Sequence record: OR769032.1
DNA: 64,000 nucleotides
Reading direction: 5' to 3' (one strand)
Source: Escherichia phage JoYop
The translations under genes were made by a program, and so were the position numbers. Under the pieces are notes generated by a model, which saw only the letters and a program-made list of their open reading frames with translations, was not told the DNA's origin and ran no database searches. Every line of letters begins with the position of its first letter. Position 1 is the first letter of the stretch. Below are positions 1,412 to 6,909 of the stretch, in pieces.

Positions 1412-2260
1412 TTAATCAACTGCTATTGGATGAATAGCATTAAACTTATGAAATGCTTCTGATTTTTCTTTACGCGAAACACACATGCGAAGAACCTTTA
1501 ATGGCTCGTCTTCTTCACCCAACGATTTTCGCTTTTCAATATTAGATGTTTTCCAACGAGCTTGCTCTGGAAACTCTTTATTAATTTGCTCAAGCGCTCT
1601 ATTATGTTTAGAATTACTACGAATTGAACTACACCCACCCGGAGCCTGTGCTTTTCCAGATACAACCAGATATTTGAACAAGGCCAAATGCGGATAACCT
1701 TGATTAATTAAATTGAGAAATGCATACATATCTTCGCATAAATCAATTTTTCCATACCCAATTTGTTCTGTCGTAAGTTTTCCGAGGTCATACCATGTAT
1801 TCGTGAATCCATATGAATTTTCACGATAATTACCCCAAGATGAAGTAATTTTAAAAATTGGTAGACGAGCATGGCCATGATAATACCCACAATCCATAGC
1901 ATCTTCAACGTATTGAATTAATTCGTAGAATTGTTCACGGGTTAATTGATTGACTTTATCTACACAACGACGATCGTCTCTTTTTCGCATTGAGCTCATA
2001 CGAATCGTAGTATCATCGTCAATCATCCAGATTCGTTGACCTGCATACATATCAGTAATTGCTTTACGAGTACCAGCAATTCCATTTACATCATCAGGAA
2101 TGGTTATAATTTTAGCTCTAGACCCGTAAGCGTCATAATAAGCTTTTTCTTCATGTTCACGTACTACGATATGAGGTTCATAATCAGTCGGAAACATATC
2201 AAGGGCAGAAACTGCCCCTACGCGTTGATAGCTTGGAATTACAAATTGAATCATTTCCAC
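1412..2260 (-). CDS. GT-A fold glycosyltransferase in the beta-gt position (T2/T6-type beta-glucosyl-HMC-alpha-glucosyltransferase candidate)
   Basis: 282 aa; FVIPSYQR N-terminal GT-A signature and DDD motif (WMIDDDTTI); sits between uvsX and gene 42 where T4 has beta-gt; does not match T4 beta-gt as recalled. Confidence 0.7.
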   Translation of the reverse strand: MEMIQFVIPSYQRVGAVSALDMFPTDYEPHIVVREHEEKAYYDAYGSRAKIITIPDDVNGIAGTRKAITDMYAGQRIWMIDDDTTIRMSSMRKRDDRRCVDKVNQLTREQFYELIQYVEDAMDCGYYHGHARLPIFKITSSWGNYRENSYGFTNTWYDLGKLTTEQIGYGKIDLCEDMYAFLNLINQGYPHLALFKYLVVSGKAQAPGGCSSIRSNSKHNRALEQINKEFPEQARWKTSNIEKRKSLGEEDEPLKVLRMCVSRKEKSEAFHKFNAIHPIAVD

Positions 2261-2998: not shown

Positions 2999-3148
2999 TC
3001 AATTGATGCATTCATATTTAAATTGTAACAGTAATAAACCCCACCCTATGATAAGAGTTGGAATCATAACAGGAACTGTTACGCTATAGTATATACTTAT
3101 TATAACCATCAAGATTAAAAGCAACACTGCTATAATTTTGCTTTTCAT
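2999..3148 (-). CDS. small membrane peptide (imm.1 position)
   Basis: 49-aa hydrophobic ORF MKSKIIAVLLLILMV...; start overlaps the imm stop (ATGA); not in the supplied ORF track (<60 aa). Confidence 0.45.
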   Translation of the reverse strand: MKSKIIAVLLLILMVIISIYYSVTVPVMIPTLIIGWGLLLLQFKYECIN

Positions 3149-3396
3149 TCTTTCTCTCTGATGATAATTACTTGATTTGGCTGTGCAGACTTTTTGGTTT
3201 CACCCGCAATTGACCAAATAAATGTAATAAACCAACCGATAATTGACCAGTTAAACAGTAAAGACGTGAAAAAGATTCCTACTGTCGATTTTGACCCACG
3301 CATCAAGGCAATGAACCATGGAAGCATGTATATAATAATAGCCAACACGCCTGAAACTAAAACCATAAAAATTGAACCTGCTACTAAAGTTTCCAT
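3145..3396 (-). CDS. imm: Imm-like two-helix membrane protein (superinfection immunity)
   Basis: 83 aa, two hydrophobic segments, located between gene 42 and gene 43 as in T4. Confidence 0.65.
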   Translation of the reverse strand: METLVAGSIFMVLVSGVLAIIIYMLPWFIALMRGSKSTVGIFFTSLLFNWSIIGWFITFIWSIAGETKKSAQPNQVIIIREKE

Positions 3397-3403
3397 ATTT
3401 TCC

Positions 3404-3784
3404 TCACTTAGTCAAATTTTTTACACATGAATTATAAGAATTCACCACATACTCCATCGGAGCATTTTTACCTGTACGCCATTGGTAATTATTAGCCCAA
3501 TTTGCCCAAAGTTCAGCGCAATAATTTTCAATTTTTTCTTCGTGTGTAATTACATCTGAATTACGATATGCTTGAGCAGATTCATCTGGGCGAATAGCTT
3601 CGTCAAAATTCGCCTGCATTTGTTCTACTGTCTGCTTTGGAGCTTCTTTATAACACTTGACATTAGGATTATAAAATTTGCTTGAGCAGTTTACAATTTT
3701 TCCTACATCAGATTGATTTACTACCGGTCCTTGAGCTACACAACCAGTAAGACCCAATGCAATAACCAAAATAGCGATTTTCAT
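3404..3784 (-). CDS. predicted lipoprotein, unknown function
   Basis: 126 aa; signal peptide with lipobox (ALGLTGC); several Cys; no T4 counterpart recalled at this position. Confidence 0.6.
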   Translation of the reverse strand: MKIAILVIALGLTGCVAQGPVVNQSDVGKIVNCSSKFYNPNVKCYKEAPKQTVEQMQANFDEAIRPDESAQAYRNSDVITHEEKIENYCAELWANWANNYQWRTGKNAPMEYVVNSYNSCVKNLTK

Positions 3785-3794
3785 AACAATTTCC

Positions 3795-4031
3795 TCAAAT
3801 GCAAGTAGTAATTACACCTGTAGTGCTCACACATGTATTCCCTAATTGAACACCTAAAGATCCGTTAGTATTCATATGAAGATTATCACCAATTTTAGTT
3901 GATACTTTCCCATTCATATGAATAATAACACTAGATTCAATAGGAGTCTGAATATCATTTTCAACATCAATAAATGGAATTGTTGCTAATGCAACTAAAC
4001 AAACTGCTAAGCAACCATAAACAATTTTCAT
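3795..4031 (-). CDS. small secreted protein, unknown function
   Basis: ATG at 4029-4031 (track start 4043 is a TTG); MKIVYGCLAVCLVALA signal peptide; RBS GGAG upstream; directly behind an early promoter. Confidence 0.5.
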   Translation of the reverse strand: MKIVYGCLAVCLVALATIPFIDVENDIQTPIESSVIIHMNGKVSTKIGDNLHMNTNGSLGVQLGNTCVSTTGVITTCI

Positions 4032-4053
4032 TTTGTTCTCCAAATCCGTATCA

Positions 4054-4095
4054 GTTGATAGTTGTATAGTACCATGGAAGAACAGTGATGTAAAC
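4054..4095 (-). promoter_or_regulatory. T4-type early promoter
   Basis: On transcribed strand GTTTAC (4090-4095) then conserved GGTACTATACAACTATCAAC block (4054-4074); same module repeated at 29261, 31396, 34972, 47296. Confidence 0.6.
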
Positions 4096-4182
4096 AGTTT
4101 TGTGAAAAAATTTTCAATGAATTCTAAAGACCCAGAATCATCTGTTTTTCACAAGTATAGATTTATATTACTTGTATGAAAA

Positions 4183-4200
4183 AGGGACCCGGAGGTCCCT
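4183..4200 (-). terminator. hairpin downstream of gene 43
   Basis: agggacc-cgga-ggtccct, 7-bp stem. Confidence 0.45.
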
Positions 4201-4212
4201 AGATTTATTCTA

Positions 4213-6909
4213 TCAGCCAAACAGGAAGTCTAACGAAGCTTTTTCTTCATAGTCCATACCTGCCGATTCACACATACCTGCAAGTGGTTTAACAAACGAT
4301 TTTTGGAACAAAGTTGAGTAGTCAATCCAAGATAGTACGTCAGAACGAATTTCCTTTGGAAGTTCTGTTCCCGATGGCCAAGCAATACACTTATCACCAA
4401 ATGGGTTTCCTTCACGTAATGGAAGAACCATTACTTTATTTCCATCCAAAATTGGAGCTACACCTAAACCGCTAACAGCTCGACGATAAGTTAGCACACC
4501 ACGAATATGGAACGGGCATTTAAATCCTGGCCAACCTTTATCATCGTATTTCGCTATATCGTTCGCAGTTTTTACTTCAGCAATAACTTTATAGTCAAGT
4601 TGACGATATTCTTTCTCAAAGTTCTTGTAATATTCTTGGACAGACTCTTCACCTTCCTGAAGAATACGACGAATACTTTCTTCGAGAGCTTCTTGTACTG
4701 CTTTTGGTGTTGAACTCTGTTGAGTTTCCATACCCATGATTTTTAGATGCGGTTCAGCAAATCGCTTATCTTCCATATCATAAACGTTCAGAGCATAACG
4801 CTTTTTCGCTTTCCAAAAACCACCGACACCCTTTGAACCAAGTGGAGGACAAGAAATAGCTTCACGGTCCATATGCATCAGATGCTCGCGGTTATTCATA
4901 TAATCACATAACTCACGATATGCAACATCAATCATAGGTTCCATCTTTTTCTTACCGAACTGATTCATGAATTCAACTAAATCATTTTGTTCTTTAAAGC
5001 GGTCAAGACCTACTTTTTCAATAACTTTATCTACGCAAACATATACCGAATCAGTGTCACCAGCTGCGATGAAGTCTTCACCATTAGTTCCACACACTTT
5101 ATTCAGATACTCATTAATTTTACGAGCAATCCACTGAATACCAACTTGGCCGAAAATTGTGATAGCAGTAGCATTTCGCAAATCATAGTAACGGAAATGA
5201 ATATTACCAAGAGCACCATAAAGACTGTTAATAAGAATTTTACGGTTCAGCTGATTTGTATTAGCAAGTGTAGCAGCTTTTTCACATTCTTCAATCAAAC
5301 TATTGAGAACAGATTCAGTATAATTCGATAGTTCATTTAAGAAATCATCACTGAACTTAACATATCGTTCAACTTCCGGTTTAGTTGAACAAGTCCCTGC
5401 GCCTTTCATAATAATTTTTTTAATAGCTTCGGCATTCATTTCTTCTGCGAACATTTTCTTTTTCCAGTCTTTACGTTGGAAAAATACTTTAGCGATTTCC
5501 TTTGGAATGATACCTTCTTGGTGCTTATCATACATCCATCCATTCGGAGAGCAAGAATATTCATCACTTGGCTTAGGAGCTGTTCCTGCGATATATTCAT
5601 GAATTGGATGAACTTTAAACTGACCACGAATAGTCTCAGGACTAATGTTAACCTGACGAATAATGCTCGGATACAGAGAAGTTAAGTCAAAACTCATAAT
5701 ATACCGACGAGCAATCGGTTTAGGTTCAAACACAAATGCACCCGGAAAACTCTGCTTAACGTGTGAACCTTGCTGAGGAATAACCTTATGTTCACCTTTC
5801 AGTGAGTTAAAAATAATAGCATCCCAAGTTTTAATAGGACTCATTACGCCAGAAAAAGGCATTTTAGCGTAATAAGACATACTTAAAACCAGATCGATAA
5901 ACCCACGAATTTTATCGATTGCTTGAACTGATTCTACGTCAATGATGTTATAACTAATGTATCGTTGATGATTAGTCTCACGAAGTTTATTAATAGGACC
6001 ATCGTACGGTAATTTACCTTTTTTGGTTTCATGTTGAGCAACTGATTCCAAAGAGAATGACGGCAAATTAGTAAACGCGAATTTCTTATACAAATCTAAA
6101 TAATCAAGAATAGATACGCCATCAATAGAATAAATTTCTTTGCTACCGTACATGTTTTGAATTAGTTTAGATTTTACTCGACCGATTGGGGAGAAGCGTT
6201 TCATACTGCGTTCACCAAGAACCATTTTAACACGATTCATGATATACGGAACGTCAAATCCCTCAATATTCCAACCAGTAAAAATAGCAGGTCGTTTCTG
6301 TTCCCAGAGATTAATATATTCCATGAGCATATCACGCTCATTATCAAATGGCATATAAATTACTCGGTCAAGAATTTCTTGAGGAACTTCATCACCACCT
6401 TCACAGTCAAGCTTAGCAGCTAATTTTGCATCCCATTTTGATACTGAGCCATACATTGAATTCAACAAATCAAAGACGTAAAAACGGTCGTCAATTGAAT
6501 CATAATGAGTGATAGCATCAATTTCATATTCTGCTTTCATTGGGTCAGGAAATTTATCACCAGTAACCTCAATGTCACAGTTAGCTACACGAACAAATTT
6601 TCGGTCATAAACAATTTCCGAACCGTATGTATCACTGATATAAGCGAGTTTAAAATCGTTCATACCGAGAGCTTCGAGACCGATGTCTTCCATTCGCTTC
6701 ATCCAGTCTCGTGCATCTTTCATTGATGGAAATTTTTGAGGAGCGCAGTTTTTACCATAGATGTCTTTGTATTTTGACTCTTCCTTACAATGCCTAAACA
6801 TAGTCGGAAGATATTCTACTTCACGAGTACGTTCCTTTCCATTTTCATCAATATAACGCTCAACAATGTTATTTCCGACTGTTTCGATAGAGATATAAAA
6901 TTCTTTCAT
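4213..6909 (-). CDS. 43: DNA polymerase (family B)
   Basis: 898 aa; same length and extensive identity to T4 gp43 as recalled (MKEFYISIETVGNNIVERYIDENGKER..., DTDS motif). Confidence 0.97.
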   Translation of the reverse strand: MKEFYISIETVGNNIVERYIDENGKERTREVEYLPTMFRHCKEESKYKDIYGKNCAPQKFPSMKDARDWMKRMEDIGLEALGMNDFKLAYISDTYGSEIVYDRKFVRVANCDIEVTGDKFPDPMKAEYEIDAITHYDSIDDRFYVFDLLNSMYGSVSKWDAKLAAKLDCEGGDEVPQEILDRVIYMPFDNERDMLMEYINLWEQKRPAIFTGWNIEGFDVPYIMNRVKMVLGERSMKRFSPIGRVKSKLIQNMYGSKEIYSIDGVSILDYLDLYKKFAFTNLPSFSLESVAQHETKKGKLPYDGPINKLRETNHQRYISYNIIDVESVQAIDKIRGFIDLVLSMSYYAKMPFSGVMSPIKTWDAIIFNSLKGEHKVIPQQGSHVKQSFPGAFVFEPKPIARRYIMSFDLTSLYPSIIRQVNISPETIRGQFKVHPIHEYIAGTAPKPSDEYSCSPNGWMYDKHQEGIIPKEIAKVFFQRKDWKKKMFAEEMNAEAIKKIIMKGAGTCSTKPEVERYVKFSDDFLNELSNYTESVLNSLIEECEKAATLANTNQLNRKILINSLYGALGNIHFRYYDLRNATAITIFGQVGIQWIARKINEYLNKVCGTNGEDFIAAGDTDSVYVCVDKVIEKVGLDRFKEQNDLVEFMNQFGKKKMEPMIDVAYRELCDYMNNREHLMHMDREAISCPPLGSKGVGGFWKAKKRYALNVYDMEDKRFAEPHLKIMGMETQQSSTPKAVQEALEESIRRILQEGEESVQEYYKNFEKEYRQLDYKVIAEVKTANDIAKYDDKGWPGFKCPFHIRGVLTYRRAVSGLGVAPILDGNKVMVLPLREGNPFGDKCIAWPSGTELPKEIRSDVLSWIDYSTLFQKSFVKPLAGMCESAGMDYEEKASLDFLFG

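What the first reader, a model, noticed from the sequence alone, without database searches (positions are those of the whole stretch)
3404..4200. Two signal-peptide genes behind their own early promoter between imm and gene 43
A lipoprotein (lipobox LTGC) and a small secreted protein sit between the superinfection-immunity gene imm and the DNA polymerase gene, preceded by a hairpin (4183-4200) and early promoter (4054-4095). I do not recall genes here in T4. Envelope-targeted proteins next to imm are candidates for receptor masking or injection blocking.
Basis: partly seen in the sequence, partly recalled or inferred. Interest (0 to 1): 0.55.

Follow-up and report, generated by a model that had tools for sequence, protein, structure and literature searches.

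The report
T4 imm.1 lipoprotein plus accessory ORF
The two genes are real, but one is the already annotated and uncharacterised T4 gene imm.1, which sat beside the superinfection-immunity gene imm in every T4-like phage examined, and the other is an optional small secreted-protein gene that T4 and T6 lack.

Summary
These are a terminator hairpin after gene 43, a conserved T4-type early promoter, a 78-aa ORF with a Sec-type signal peptide, and a 126-aa lipoprotein with lipobox LTGC next to imm.

The claim that T4 has no genes here is half wrong. The lipoprotein is the ortholog of T4 imm.1 (98% identical, Pfam DUF5481). It is nearly invariant in T2, T4 and T6.

The 78-aa gene (phrog_4189) is absent from T4 and T6. 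T2 carries an unrelated gene in the same slot. About 325 other phage records, mostly coliphages, have the 78-aa gene. It evolves faster than its neighbours (dN/dS 0.33, against 0.05 for imm.1). A homolog sits elsewhere in another T4-like phage.

The hairpin, promoter and Shine-Dalgarno arrangement matches the published PeSL cassette elements that shuffle small ORFs.

New lead: an Imm.1-type lipoprotein lies next to imm in every T4-like lineage sampled, across several genome contexts. It is often accompanied by a 49-aa membrane ORF. This argues that Imm.1 is a periplasmic partner in the Imm block of genome delivery, not a receptor mask. The sequences are already known and their function is untested. 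Interest is modest.

The parts
4183..4200 (-). Intrinsic-terminator hairpin after gene 43 (AGGGACC-UCCG-GGUCCCU), followed by U5 at 4182-4178. It is the stem-loop part of a PeSL-type element.
   Evidence: Terminator-like site in the scan. RNA fold -13.9 kcal/mol, z = -2.6. Conserved in T4, T6 and T2 and in distant lineages L014 and L017.
4066..4095 (-). T4-type early promoter: -35 GTTTACA, 17-nt spacer, TG-extended -10 TACTAT. An A/T-rich tract lies upstream.
   Evidence: Scan hit. The -35, the TG-TACTAT and the start region ATCAA are invariant in five lineages, including the relocated Mosigvirus copy. The site matches the published PST/T4 PeSL consensus TTTACW-N17-TAYWAT (PMC4122927).
4038..4041 (-). 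Shine-Dalgarno GGAG, 6 nt before the ATG of the 78-aa ORF. In T4 and T6 the same SD serves imm.1 directly.
   Evidence: Sequence; alignment with T4 and T6.
3795..4031 (-). 78-aa accessory ORF (phrog_4189). It has a Sec-type signal peptide (MK + an 11-19-residue apolar stretch + ALA|T). The mature part is about 62 aa and beta-rich, with a conserved C-terminus LGVQLGNTCVSTTGVITTCI carrying Cys67 and Cys77.
   Evidence: phrog_4189 at E = 1.2e-24. No hit in Pfam, NCBIfam or PADLOC. 325 phage records at 57-88% identity. Family alignment. dN/dS 0.33. AF2 model pLDDT 63, six short strands. Absent from T4 and T6.
3404..3784 (-). imm.1 ortholog: a 126-aa predicted lipoprotein (lipobox LTGC, Cys15; Val at +2). 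It has a Cys33/Cys44 pair and an invariant Cys89/Cys120 pair. Its own SD, GAGG, overlaps the stop codon of the upstream ORF.
   Evidence: Pfam DUF5481, 236.8 bits against a cut-off of 27. 98% identical to T4 Imm.1 and to T6. 656 phage records. dN/dS 0.05. Family alignment. AF2 gives a C-terminal helical hairpin at residues 81-125 with pLDDT about 90.
3145..3396 (-). imm, the superinfection immunity membrane protein (83 aa). It is a context gene and the proposed functional partner.
   Evidence: PF14373 at E = 7.7e-16; phrog_1039. 100% identical to many T-even Imm proteins. Imm binds the tape measure protein gp29 (bioRxiv 10.64898/2026.03.06.709160).
2999..3148 (-). 49-aa hydrophobic ORF (called '42.1' in RB51). 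Its start overlaps the imm stop (ATGA). It is a possible third member of the module.
   Evidence: phrog_3610 at E = 2.7e-26. Found directly after imm in T4 (where it is unannotated), in L016 and in SP18, at 53-86% identity. dN/dS 0.35.
4213..6909 (-). Gene 43 DNA polymerase, the upstream context gene.
   Evidence: ORF list; annotation of matching phage records.

Best explanation
The interval is an ordinary T-even early transcription unit. The gene-43 terminator hairpin and a conserved early promoter together form a PeSL-type composite element. This element drives, in order, a 78-aa secreted accessory ORF, imm.1, imm, a 49-aa membrane ORF, and gene 42.

The lipoprotein is the ortholog of T4 Imm.1. 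Inferred mechanism: Imm.1 is exported, lipidated at Cys15 and tethered in the periplasm. With Val at +2 the default destination is the outer membrane. There it acts as the periplasm-side companion of the inner-membrane protein Imm in blocking genome delivery by superinfecting T-even phages. Imm has been reported to bind the tape measure protein gp29. The target of Imm.1 is inferred to be a conserved phage or host component, not a variable receptor.

The 78-aa gene is an optional cassette ORF. It was inserted between the promoter/SD and imm.1 at a short direct repeat (ATGAAAAT). It encodes a small disulfide-bonded periplasmic protein of unknown role and has no conserved linkage to imm.

Shown here: gene identities, export motifs, the promoter footprint, the polymorphism of the slot, and synteny. 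Inferred: lipidation, localisation, and any role in exclusion. The stated confidence is a blend: the identity and architecture part is near certain (about 0.95), while the inferred Imm-partner function of Imm.1 is about 0.45-0.5.
For: Identity. DUF5481 hit of 236.8 bits. 98% identity to T4 Imm.1 and to the T6 protein. T4 annotates imm.1 between imm and gene 43.

Module conservation. DUF5481 homologs at only 33-46% identity sit immediately upstream of a PF14373 gene in four further lineages. Two of these are in other genome contexts: Mosigvirus ST0, between 41/dmd and 61 and contiguous with sp; and L016, next to frd.3. The other two are L014 and L017.

T4-like genera without a detectable DUF5481 hit still have a lipoprotein of the same architecture touching imm. 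That architecture is a lipobox, a post-Cys motif QG-x-VV-x-A/S-x-E/D-V/I-GK, and two C-terminal Cys. The cases are S16, Jiaodavirus, Serratia PS2 (upstream of imm), and IME08, UGJNEcP4 and SP18 (downstream of imm). Supporting comparisons: hhalign 97% over the full length; BLASTP E = 6e-11 and 5e-7 for bridging pairs.

Promoter. The promoter footprint travels with the pair.

Periplasmic location. Cys33/Cys44 are present or absent together, and Cys89/Cys120 are invariant.

Constraint. dN/dS is 0.05.

Imm mechanism. Imm binds the TMP, and Imm alone excludes T4.

78-aa ORF. Present in 325 records. Absent in T4 and T6, and replaced in T2. The outgroups L014 and L017 have an empty slot of about 180 nt. 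A homolog lies in another region with similar SD flanks. The PeSL architecture and consensus match.
Against: - No experiment links Imm.1 to exclusion.
- Imm expressed alone from a plasmid already excludes T4, so Imm.1 is at most auxiliary.
- One DUF5481 lineage (P0018) has Phe in place of the lipobox Cys, so lipid anchoring is not universal.
- Homology between DUF5481 and the lipoproteins of S16, IME08, SP18 and PS2 is weak once the signal peptide is removed: hhalign probability 42%, E = 2.6e-4.
- Imm homologs in phages that are not T4-like (LZ35, 37P2) have no adjacent lipoprotein.
- Adjacency in tightly packed phage operons can reflect shared timing rather than shared function.
- The structure models are weak (pLDDT 63-66) and match no known fold.
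Confidence: 0.55

Rival explanations
1. Receptor masking. One or both proteins bind an outer-membrane phage receptor from the periplasmic side and block adsorption or triggering. The model is T5 Llp on FhuA, or Cor of T1/phi80.
For: Both proteins carry export signals, and Imm.1 is a predicted outer-membrane lipoprotein like Llp. They are expressed from an early promoter. The 78-aa protein is variable (57-97% identity, dN/dS 0.33) and polymorphic in presence, as expected for an arms-race gene.
Against: Imm.1 is 97.6-98% identical in T2, T4 and T6, which use different receptors according to established literature. A receptor-specific mask should co-vary with receptor choice. Neither protein shows sequence or fold similarity to any solved structure, Llp-FhuA entries included. 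The most conserved part of the 78-aa protein is its C-terminus, and the protein is dispensable in T4 and T6.
Confidence: 0.12
2. Imm.1 has an envelope function independent of Imm and is merely co-transcribed with it. Examples would be inhibiting a peptidoglycan hydrolase or periplasmic nuclease, stabilising the envelope against lysis from without, or contributing to the lysis-inhibition signal.
For: The protein has a periplasmic, disulfide-containing architecture. In Mosigvirus the gene is contiguous with both imm and sp, and Sp is a periplasmic lysozyme inhibitor (PMC7677548). Imm works without Imm.1.
Against: The pairing persists through relocation and through inversion of gene order in several genera. 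This is more than shared timing requires. There is no similarity to known lysozyme-inhibitor families in Pfam, NCBIfam or PDB.
Confidence: 0.25
3. The 78-aa ORF is passenger cargo of PeSL-mediated shuffling. It has no role in superinfection, or only a host- or niche-specific one, and its position next to imm.1 is accidental.
For: The slot has at least three states: empty in T4 and T6, an unrelated 83-aa gene in T2, RB27 and RB51, and the 78-aa gene elsewhere. A homolog at 59% identity lies in a different region near nudE and lysozyme e. It is truncated in phage Shinka. PeSL elements are documented next to such indels (PMC4122927).
Against: It is retained in about 325 genomes under purifying selection (dN/dS 0.33), with a conserved signal peptide, a conserved Cys pair and a conserved C-terminus. 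Some function is therefore selected.
Confidence: 0.3
4. The ORFs are chance open frames in an AT-rich intergenic region.
For: Both are short. The promoter consensus match alone is at chance level.
Against: There are strong family matches. The ORFs are conserved across hundreds of genomes. dN/dS is well below 1. SD spacing is proper.
Confidence: 0.01

Closest known systems
T4 imm.1 (NP_049661; Pfam DUF5481 / PF17578; phrog_1754)
   Same: Ortholog: 98% identity, the same position between imm and gene 43, the same promoter, and the same lipobox region (LAGC in T4, LTGC here).
   Different: One extra C-terminal Lys and two substitutions. In this window it is the second gene after the promoter rather than the first.
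T4 Imm / Sp superinfection exclusion system
   Same: Early-expressed, envelope-located small proteins. Imm.1 is adjacent to imm in all T4-like lineages sampled, and adjacent to both imm and sp in Mosigvirus.
   Different: Imm is a polytopic inner-membrane protein that binds TMP gp29. Sp is a soluble periplasmic inhibitor of gp5 lysozyme. Imm.1 is a lipoprotein with no sequence similarity to either and no demonstrated activity.
T5 Llp and Cor-type receptor-blocking lipoproteins
   Same: Small phage-encoded lipoproteins made early after infection and proposed to prevent superinfection (PMC9586334, listed).
   Different: No sequence or fold similarity. Imm.1 does not vary with receptor specificity across T2, T4 and T6.
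PeSL (promoter-early stem-loop) cassettes of T4-like phages (Arbiol et al. 2010; Comeau et al. 2014)
   Same: A stem-loop upstream of an A/T-rich tract, a promoter fitting TTTACW-N17-TAYWAT, then SD and ATG. The element sits exactly at an indel/replacement site between close relatives.
   Different: Only one PeSL flanks the 78-aa ORF. The distal junction is an 8-nt direct repeat (ATGAAAAT) plus a second SD, not a second PeSL. The published papers do not, in the text read, list this particular locus.
phrog_4189 (hypothetical proteins of Tequatrovirus, e.g. Shfl2p051, HY01_0043)
   Same: The 78-aa ORF is a full-length member (E = 1.2e-24). It is 88.5% identical to the closest GenBank phage and 97% identical to an ENA metagenome protein.
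   Different: The allele in this window is not identical to any database entry. Some family members carry 7-aa signal-peptide duplications that create a lipobox.

Membership tests
DUF5481 / T4 Imm.1 | Pfam PF17578 match above the gathering score | tested here: met
   236.8 bits against a cut-off of 27; residues 22-124 cover the whole 103-position profile.
DUF5481 / T4 Imm.1 | Orthology to T4 imm.1: high identity and the same locus | tested here: met
   123/125 residues identical. Located between imm and gene 43, as in NC_000866.
Bacterial lipoprotein (SPase II substrate) | Positively charged n-region, hydrophobic h-region, and lipobox [LVI][ASTVI][GAS]C within the first ~35 residues | tested here: met
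   MKIAILVIALGLTGC, with LTGC at residues 12-15. The lipobox is conserved in 6 of 7 DUF5481 lineages.
Bacterial lipoprotein (SPase II substrate) | Actual lipid modification and outer-membrane sorting | not testable with these tools
   Requires globomycin or palmitate labelling and membrane fractionation.
Sec-secreted protein (78-aa ORF) | n-region, h-region and an AXA-type cleavage site | tested here: met
   MK, then an apolar run at residues 3-21 (Kyte-Doolittle 19-residue mean 2.46), then ALA at 14-16. LVALA is invariant in the family. No dedicated predictor was available, and a signal-anchor topology is not excluded.
phrog_4189 | Profile match | tested here: met
   E = 1.2e-24; residues 5-82 of the 82-aa reading cover the whole 71-position profile.
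PeSL composite terminator/promoter element | Stem-loop upstream of an early promoter fitting TTTACW-N17-TAYWAT, followed by SD and start codon | tested here: met
   Hairpin at 4200-4183. TTTACA-N17-TACTAT at 4094-4066. GGAG at 4041-4038. ATG at 4031.
PeSL composite terminator/promoter element | Association with an indel or replacement between closely related phages | tested here: met
   Empty in T4 and T6, the 78-aa ORF here, an unrelated 83-aa ORF in T2.
PeSL composite terminator/promoter element | Promoter activity and recombination through the element | not testable with these tools
   Needs transcript mapping and recombination assays.
Llp/Cor-type receptor-masking lipoproteins | Sequence or structural similarity to Llp or Cor | tested here: not met
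Llp/Cor-type receptor-masking lipoproteins | Specificity tracks the receptor used by the phage | tested here: not met
   Imm.1 is 97.6-98% identical in T2, T4 and T6. That these phages use different receptors is established knowledge, not tested here.
T-even superinfection immunity module (Imm-associated) | Conserved adjacency to an Imm_superinfect (PF14373) gene across diverged lineages | tested here: met
   Adjacent in Tequatrovirus, Mosigvirus, three metagenomic DUF5481 lineages, Gelderlandvirus, Jiaodavirus, Dhakavirus, Gaprivervirus and Muldoonvirus.
T-even superinfection immunity module (Imm-associated) | Contribution to exclusion of superinfecting phage | not testable with these tools
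   Needs a knockout and expression assays. No published test was found.

The most novel reading that the evidence does not exclude
Imm.1, and possibly the 49-aa ORF 42.1, may be a so-far unrecognised component of the T-even superinfection immunity machinery. In this reading an outer-membrane-tethered periplasmic lipoprotein engages the incoming tail-tube tip or tape measure protein, or positions and stabilises Imm at the penetration site. Immunity would then be an envelope-spanning two- or three-protein system rather than Imm alone. Separately, the 78-aa secreted protein would be a strain-variable add-on that tunes exclusion against particular competitors.
Probability: 0.3. Interest if true: 0.6.

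Novelty: already known. Interest (0 to 1): 0.3.

Why it matters
As sequence features, both genes are already catalogued. One is T4 imm.1 (DUF5481). The other is a hypothetical protein family present in hundreds of T-even genomes. The regulatory element is a described PeSL type. The finding therefore does not reveal a new kind of system.

The useful by-product is a testable lead. An Imm.1-type lipoprotein lies next to imm in every T4-like genus sampled, while imm homologs outside the T4-like phages lack it. A 2026 preprint showed that Imm binds the tape measure protein. That makes it timely to ask whether the conserved lipoprotein neighbour, and the 49-aa membrane ORF, take part in the block to genome delivery.

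The 78-aa slot is a clean natural example of cassette gain, loss and replacement at an early promoter.

Tried and rejected
Searches that gave nothing useful:
- Pfam, NCBIfam and PADLOC gave no hit for the 78-aa protein and only chance-level hits for Imm.1 beyond DUF5481.
- PDB sequence-profile searches for both families found nothing relevant.
- The AlphaFold2 models were weak: pLDDT 62.8 for the 78-aa protein and 66.5 for Imm.1.
- Foldseek against viral models returned only the Imm.1 family itself.
- The afdb50 library was unavailable.
- An exhaustive HMMER search of 1.84 billion representatives found only 7 Imm.1 relatives, all phage-type. The word-indexed searches found 14 relatives of the 78-aa protein and 8 of Imm.1.
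- Rfam found no RNA family in the interval.

Literature:
- 'DUF5481' returned no papers.
- 'imm.1' appears in one comparative-genomics paper, which only speculates about exclusion.
- Miller et al. 2003 and Lu & Henning 1989 are not held.

Readings rejected:
- Chance ORFs. Rejected on dN/dS and conservation.
- The 82-aa TTG start. It overlaps the SD.
- A lipobox in this window's 78-aa protein. Cys7 is too close to the N-terminus, and LAVC at residues 8-11 has Val at position -1.
- The RefSeq product name 'iduronate sulfatase' for T4 imm.1. No family search supports it.
Full report
**What is there**

The window is a T-even (Tequatrovirus) genome segment, about 96% identical over 24 kb to several sequenced coliphages. 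All genes in the region run on the minus strand:
- uvsX, 153-1334
- beta-glucosyl-HMC-alpha-glucosyltransferase, 1412-2260
- gene 42, 2251-2991
- a 49-aa hydrophobic ORF, 2999-3148
- imm, 3145-3396 (Pfam PF14373, E = 7.7e-16)
- a 126-aa ORF, 3404-3784
- a 78-aa ORF, 3795-4031
- gene 43, 4213-6909

Directly after the gene 43 stop codon lies the hairpin AGGGACC-UCCG-GGUCCCU (4200-4183), followed by five U. The scan calls it terminator-like. It folds at -13.9 kcal/mol, z = -2.6 against shuffles.

About 90 nt downstream lies TTTACA-N17-TACTAT (4094-4066), with TG before the -10 hexamer. As a bare consensus match this is at chance level: 7 sites found against 6.3 expected. Conservation supplies the evidence. 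GTTTACA, TG-TACTAT, ATCAA, the SD and the ATG are invariant in five lineages whose spacers and coding sequences have diverged strongly. One of these is a Mosigvirus in which the unit sits in another part of the genome.

The 78-aa ORF starts at ATG 4031, six nucleotides after GGAG (4041-4038). The 82-aa TTG reading overlaps the SD and is unlikely.

**The two proteins**

The 126-aa protein begins MKIAILVIALGLTGC, which is a canonical lipobox with Cys15. It matches Pfam DUF5481 at 236.8 bits against a cut-off of 27.
- It is 98% identical to T4 Imm.1. T4 annotates that gene between imm and gene 43.
- It is 98% identical to the T6 protein and 97.6% identical to the T2 protein.
- The statement that T4 has no gene here is therefore wrong for this ORF.

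The family is very small:
- It has 656 phage records. About 500 are Tequatrovirus at 95% identity or more, and 155 are Mosigvirus-type at about 33%.
- Only seven representatives turned up among 1.84 billion proteins.
- In the family alignment, Cys89 and Cys120 are invariant, and Cys33/Cys44 are present or absent together. This fits two disulfides in an oxidising compartment.
- dN/dS is 0.05, as low as for imm at 0.02.

The 78-aa protein has MK, an apolar run at residues 3-21, and ALA at residues 14-16. It matches only phrog_4189.
- Its relatives are confined to T-even-type phages: 325 records at 57-88% identity, and 14 clusters in the 5.8-billion-protein collection.
- The signal peptide core LVALA, the segment LGVQ-GN, and Ser69, Thr70, Thr71, Gly72, Thr76 and Cys77 are invariant across the family.
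- dN/dS is 0.33, with dN about twelve times that of imm.1.
- It is a real gene, but a faster-evolving one.

**Comparison with T4, T2 and T6**

- T4 and T6 lack the 78-aa gene. In both, the same promoter and SD run straight into imm.1, and gene 43 and imm.1 are about 180 nt apart.
- T2, RB27, RB51 and about 30 other records carry an unrelated, non-secreted 83-aa ORF in the same slot.
- The junctions of the 78-aa cassette are an 8-nt direct repeat, ATGAAAAT. This repeat is the start of both ORFs.
- Two distant outgroups also have an empty slot of about 180 nt. Insertion into an ancestrally empty site is therefore the more parsimonious reading.
- A 59%-identical homolog lies in a different region of another T4-like phage, near nudE and lysozyme e, with similar SD-containing flanks.
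- In one phage, Shinka, the gene is truncated.

The hairpin, A/T-rich tract, promoter, SD and ATG arrangement matches the published PeSL element of the PST/T4 pair. The promoter also fits the consensus TTTACW-N17-TAYWAT. PeSLs are described as sitting next to indels and replacements of small ORFs (PMC4122927).

**What the lipoprotein probably does**

No functional study of imm.1 was found. One comparative paper merely lists it as possibly exclusion-related. The strongest evidence obtained here is gene neighbourhood.

DUF5481 homologs at only 33-46% identity lie immediately upstream of an Imm_superinfect gene in:
- Mosigvirus ST0, where the pair sits between 41/dmd and 61 and is followed directly by spackle
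- a lineage where the pair follows frd.3
- two further lineages in the 43-42 interval

T4-like genera in which tblastn finds Imm but no DUF5481 hit nevertheless have a lipoprotein touching imm. These proteins are 147-168 aa long:
- upstream of imm in Salmonella phage S16, Jiaodavirus and Serratia phage PS2
- downstream of imm in Dhakavirus (IME08, UGJNEcP4) and Gaprivervirus SP18

These proteins share three features with Imm.1: the lipobox, a post-Cys motif (QG-x-VV-x-A/S-x-E/D-V/I-GK), and two C-terminal cysteines.
- Profile-profile comparison gives 97% probability over the full length.
- On mature parts alone it gives only 42%, E = 2.6e-4.
- Bridging pairs give BLASTP E = 6e-11 and 5e-7.
- I treat them as probable remote homologs, and at least as analogs.

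Imm homologs in phages that are not T4-like (Obolenskvirus LZ35, a Guernseyvirinae phage) have no such neighbour.

A 2026 preprint shows that Imm binds the helical-bundle domain of the tape measure protein gp29. It also shows that Imm alone, expressed from a plasmid, excludes T4.

Putting this together, I infer that Imm.1 is a periplasm-side auxiliary of the Imm block to genome delivery, aimed at a conserved target. Receptor masking of the Llp/Cor kind is unlikely for two reasons. The protein is almost invariant among T2, T4 and T6, which use different receptors according to established knowledge. It also has no similarity to solved structures.

An independent envelope function is a serious rival, for example inhibition of a hydrolase, or a role in lysis inhibition.

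**What the 78-aa protein probably does**

It is exported, most likely as a small disulfide-bonded beta-rich periplasmic protein. The AF2 model is weak (pLDDT 63) and has no fold match. Its linkage to imm is not conserved, it is dispensable in T4 and T6, and it behaves as a mobile cassette ORF. A role in competition between phages or in host-envelope interaction is possible but unsupported. It may equally be niche-specific cargo.

**Verdict**

It describes a known, annotated T4 gene plus a known family of hypothetical accessory ORFs behind a described type of promoter/terminator cassette. It is not supported for receptor masking, nor for the 78-aa gene. The one point worth carrying forward is the imm.1-imm (and 42.1) module seen in every T4-like lineage sampled, which appears not to have been tested experimentally.

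Noticed in passing
window 2999-3148 (-): A 49-aa hydrophobic ORF whose ATG overlaps the imm stop (ATGA). It is intact in T4 but not annotated in NC_000866, and it is called 42.1 in RB51. It is found directly after imm in a metagenomic lineage (61% identity) and in Gaprivervirus SP18 (53% identity), so it may belong to the imm module.
   Followed up: partly
L020 1201-1458 (phage PEC04) and proteins P0004, P0009, P0011: Homologs of the 78-aa protein carry 7-aa tandem duplications inside the signal peptide (CLVALAA). In the 85-aa HY01/PEC04 variant the duplication creates a canonical lipobox LAAC, which could convert a secreted protein into a lipoprotein.
   Followed up: no
L003 1237-1488 (phage T2): T2, RB27, RB51 and about 30 other phages carry an unrelated 83-aa ORF without an export signal in the same slot. 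Homologs at 54% identity occur in Dhakavirus genomes.
   Followed up: partly
L006 2495-3530 (Mosigvirus ST0): The imm.1-like gene, imm and spackle are contiguous, between the 41/dmd and 61 regions. This places both known exclusion genes, imm and spackle, next to the imm.1-like lipoprotein gene in one cluster.
   Followed up: partly
L016 718-1086 (protein P0018): One DUF5481 lineage has Phe instead of the lipobox Cys, plus an SPase I-type AHA|SD site. This would give a soluble periplasmic version rather than a lipoprotein.
   Followed up: no
L035 1477-1671 (Klebsiella phage 37P2, Guernseyvirinae): An Imm homolog sits on the opposite strand between the tail assembly chaperone / tape measure genes and the tail tube gene. 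This is notable given the report that Imm targets the tape measure protein.
   Followed up: no
L001 4637-5014 (T4 imm.1, NP_049661): RefSeq names the T4 imm.1 product 'iduronate sulfatase'. No Pfam or NCBIfam result supports this, and it looks like an annotation error that has spread to other records such as ECO4.
   Followed up: partly
window 1412-2260 (-): The window encodes beta-glucosyl-HMC-alpha-glucosyltransferase where T4 has beta-gt, and it lacks segA between this gene and uvsX. This is the T2/T6-type glucosylation arrangement.
   Followed up: no
L023 1201-1395 (phage Shinka): The 78-aa gene is truncated to 64 aa and loses the conserved Cys-containing C-terminus. This is likely pseudogenisation in progress.
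   Followed up: no
L002 1590-1691, L003 1133-1240, L005 1141-1257: Several GenBank records annotate a 33-38-aa ORF overlapping the conserved early promoter upstream of the slot. The window has no such ORF of 30 aa or more, so these calls are probably spurious.
   Followed up: no
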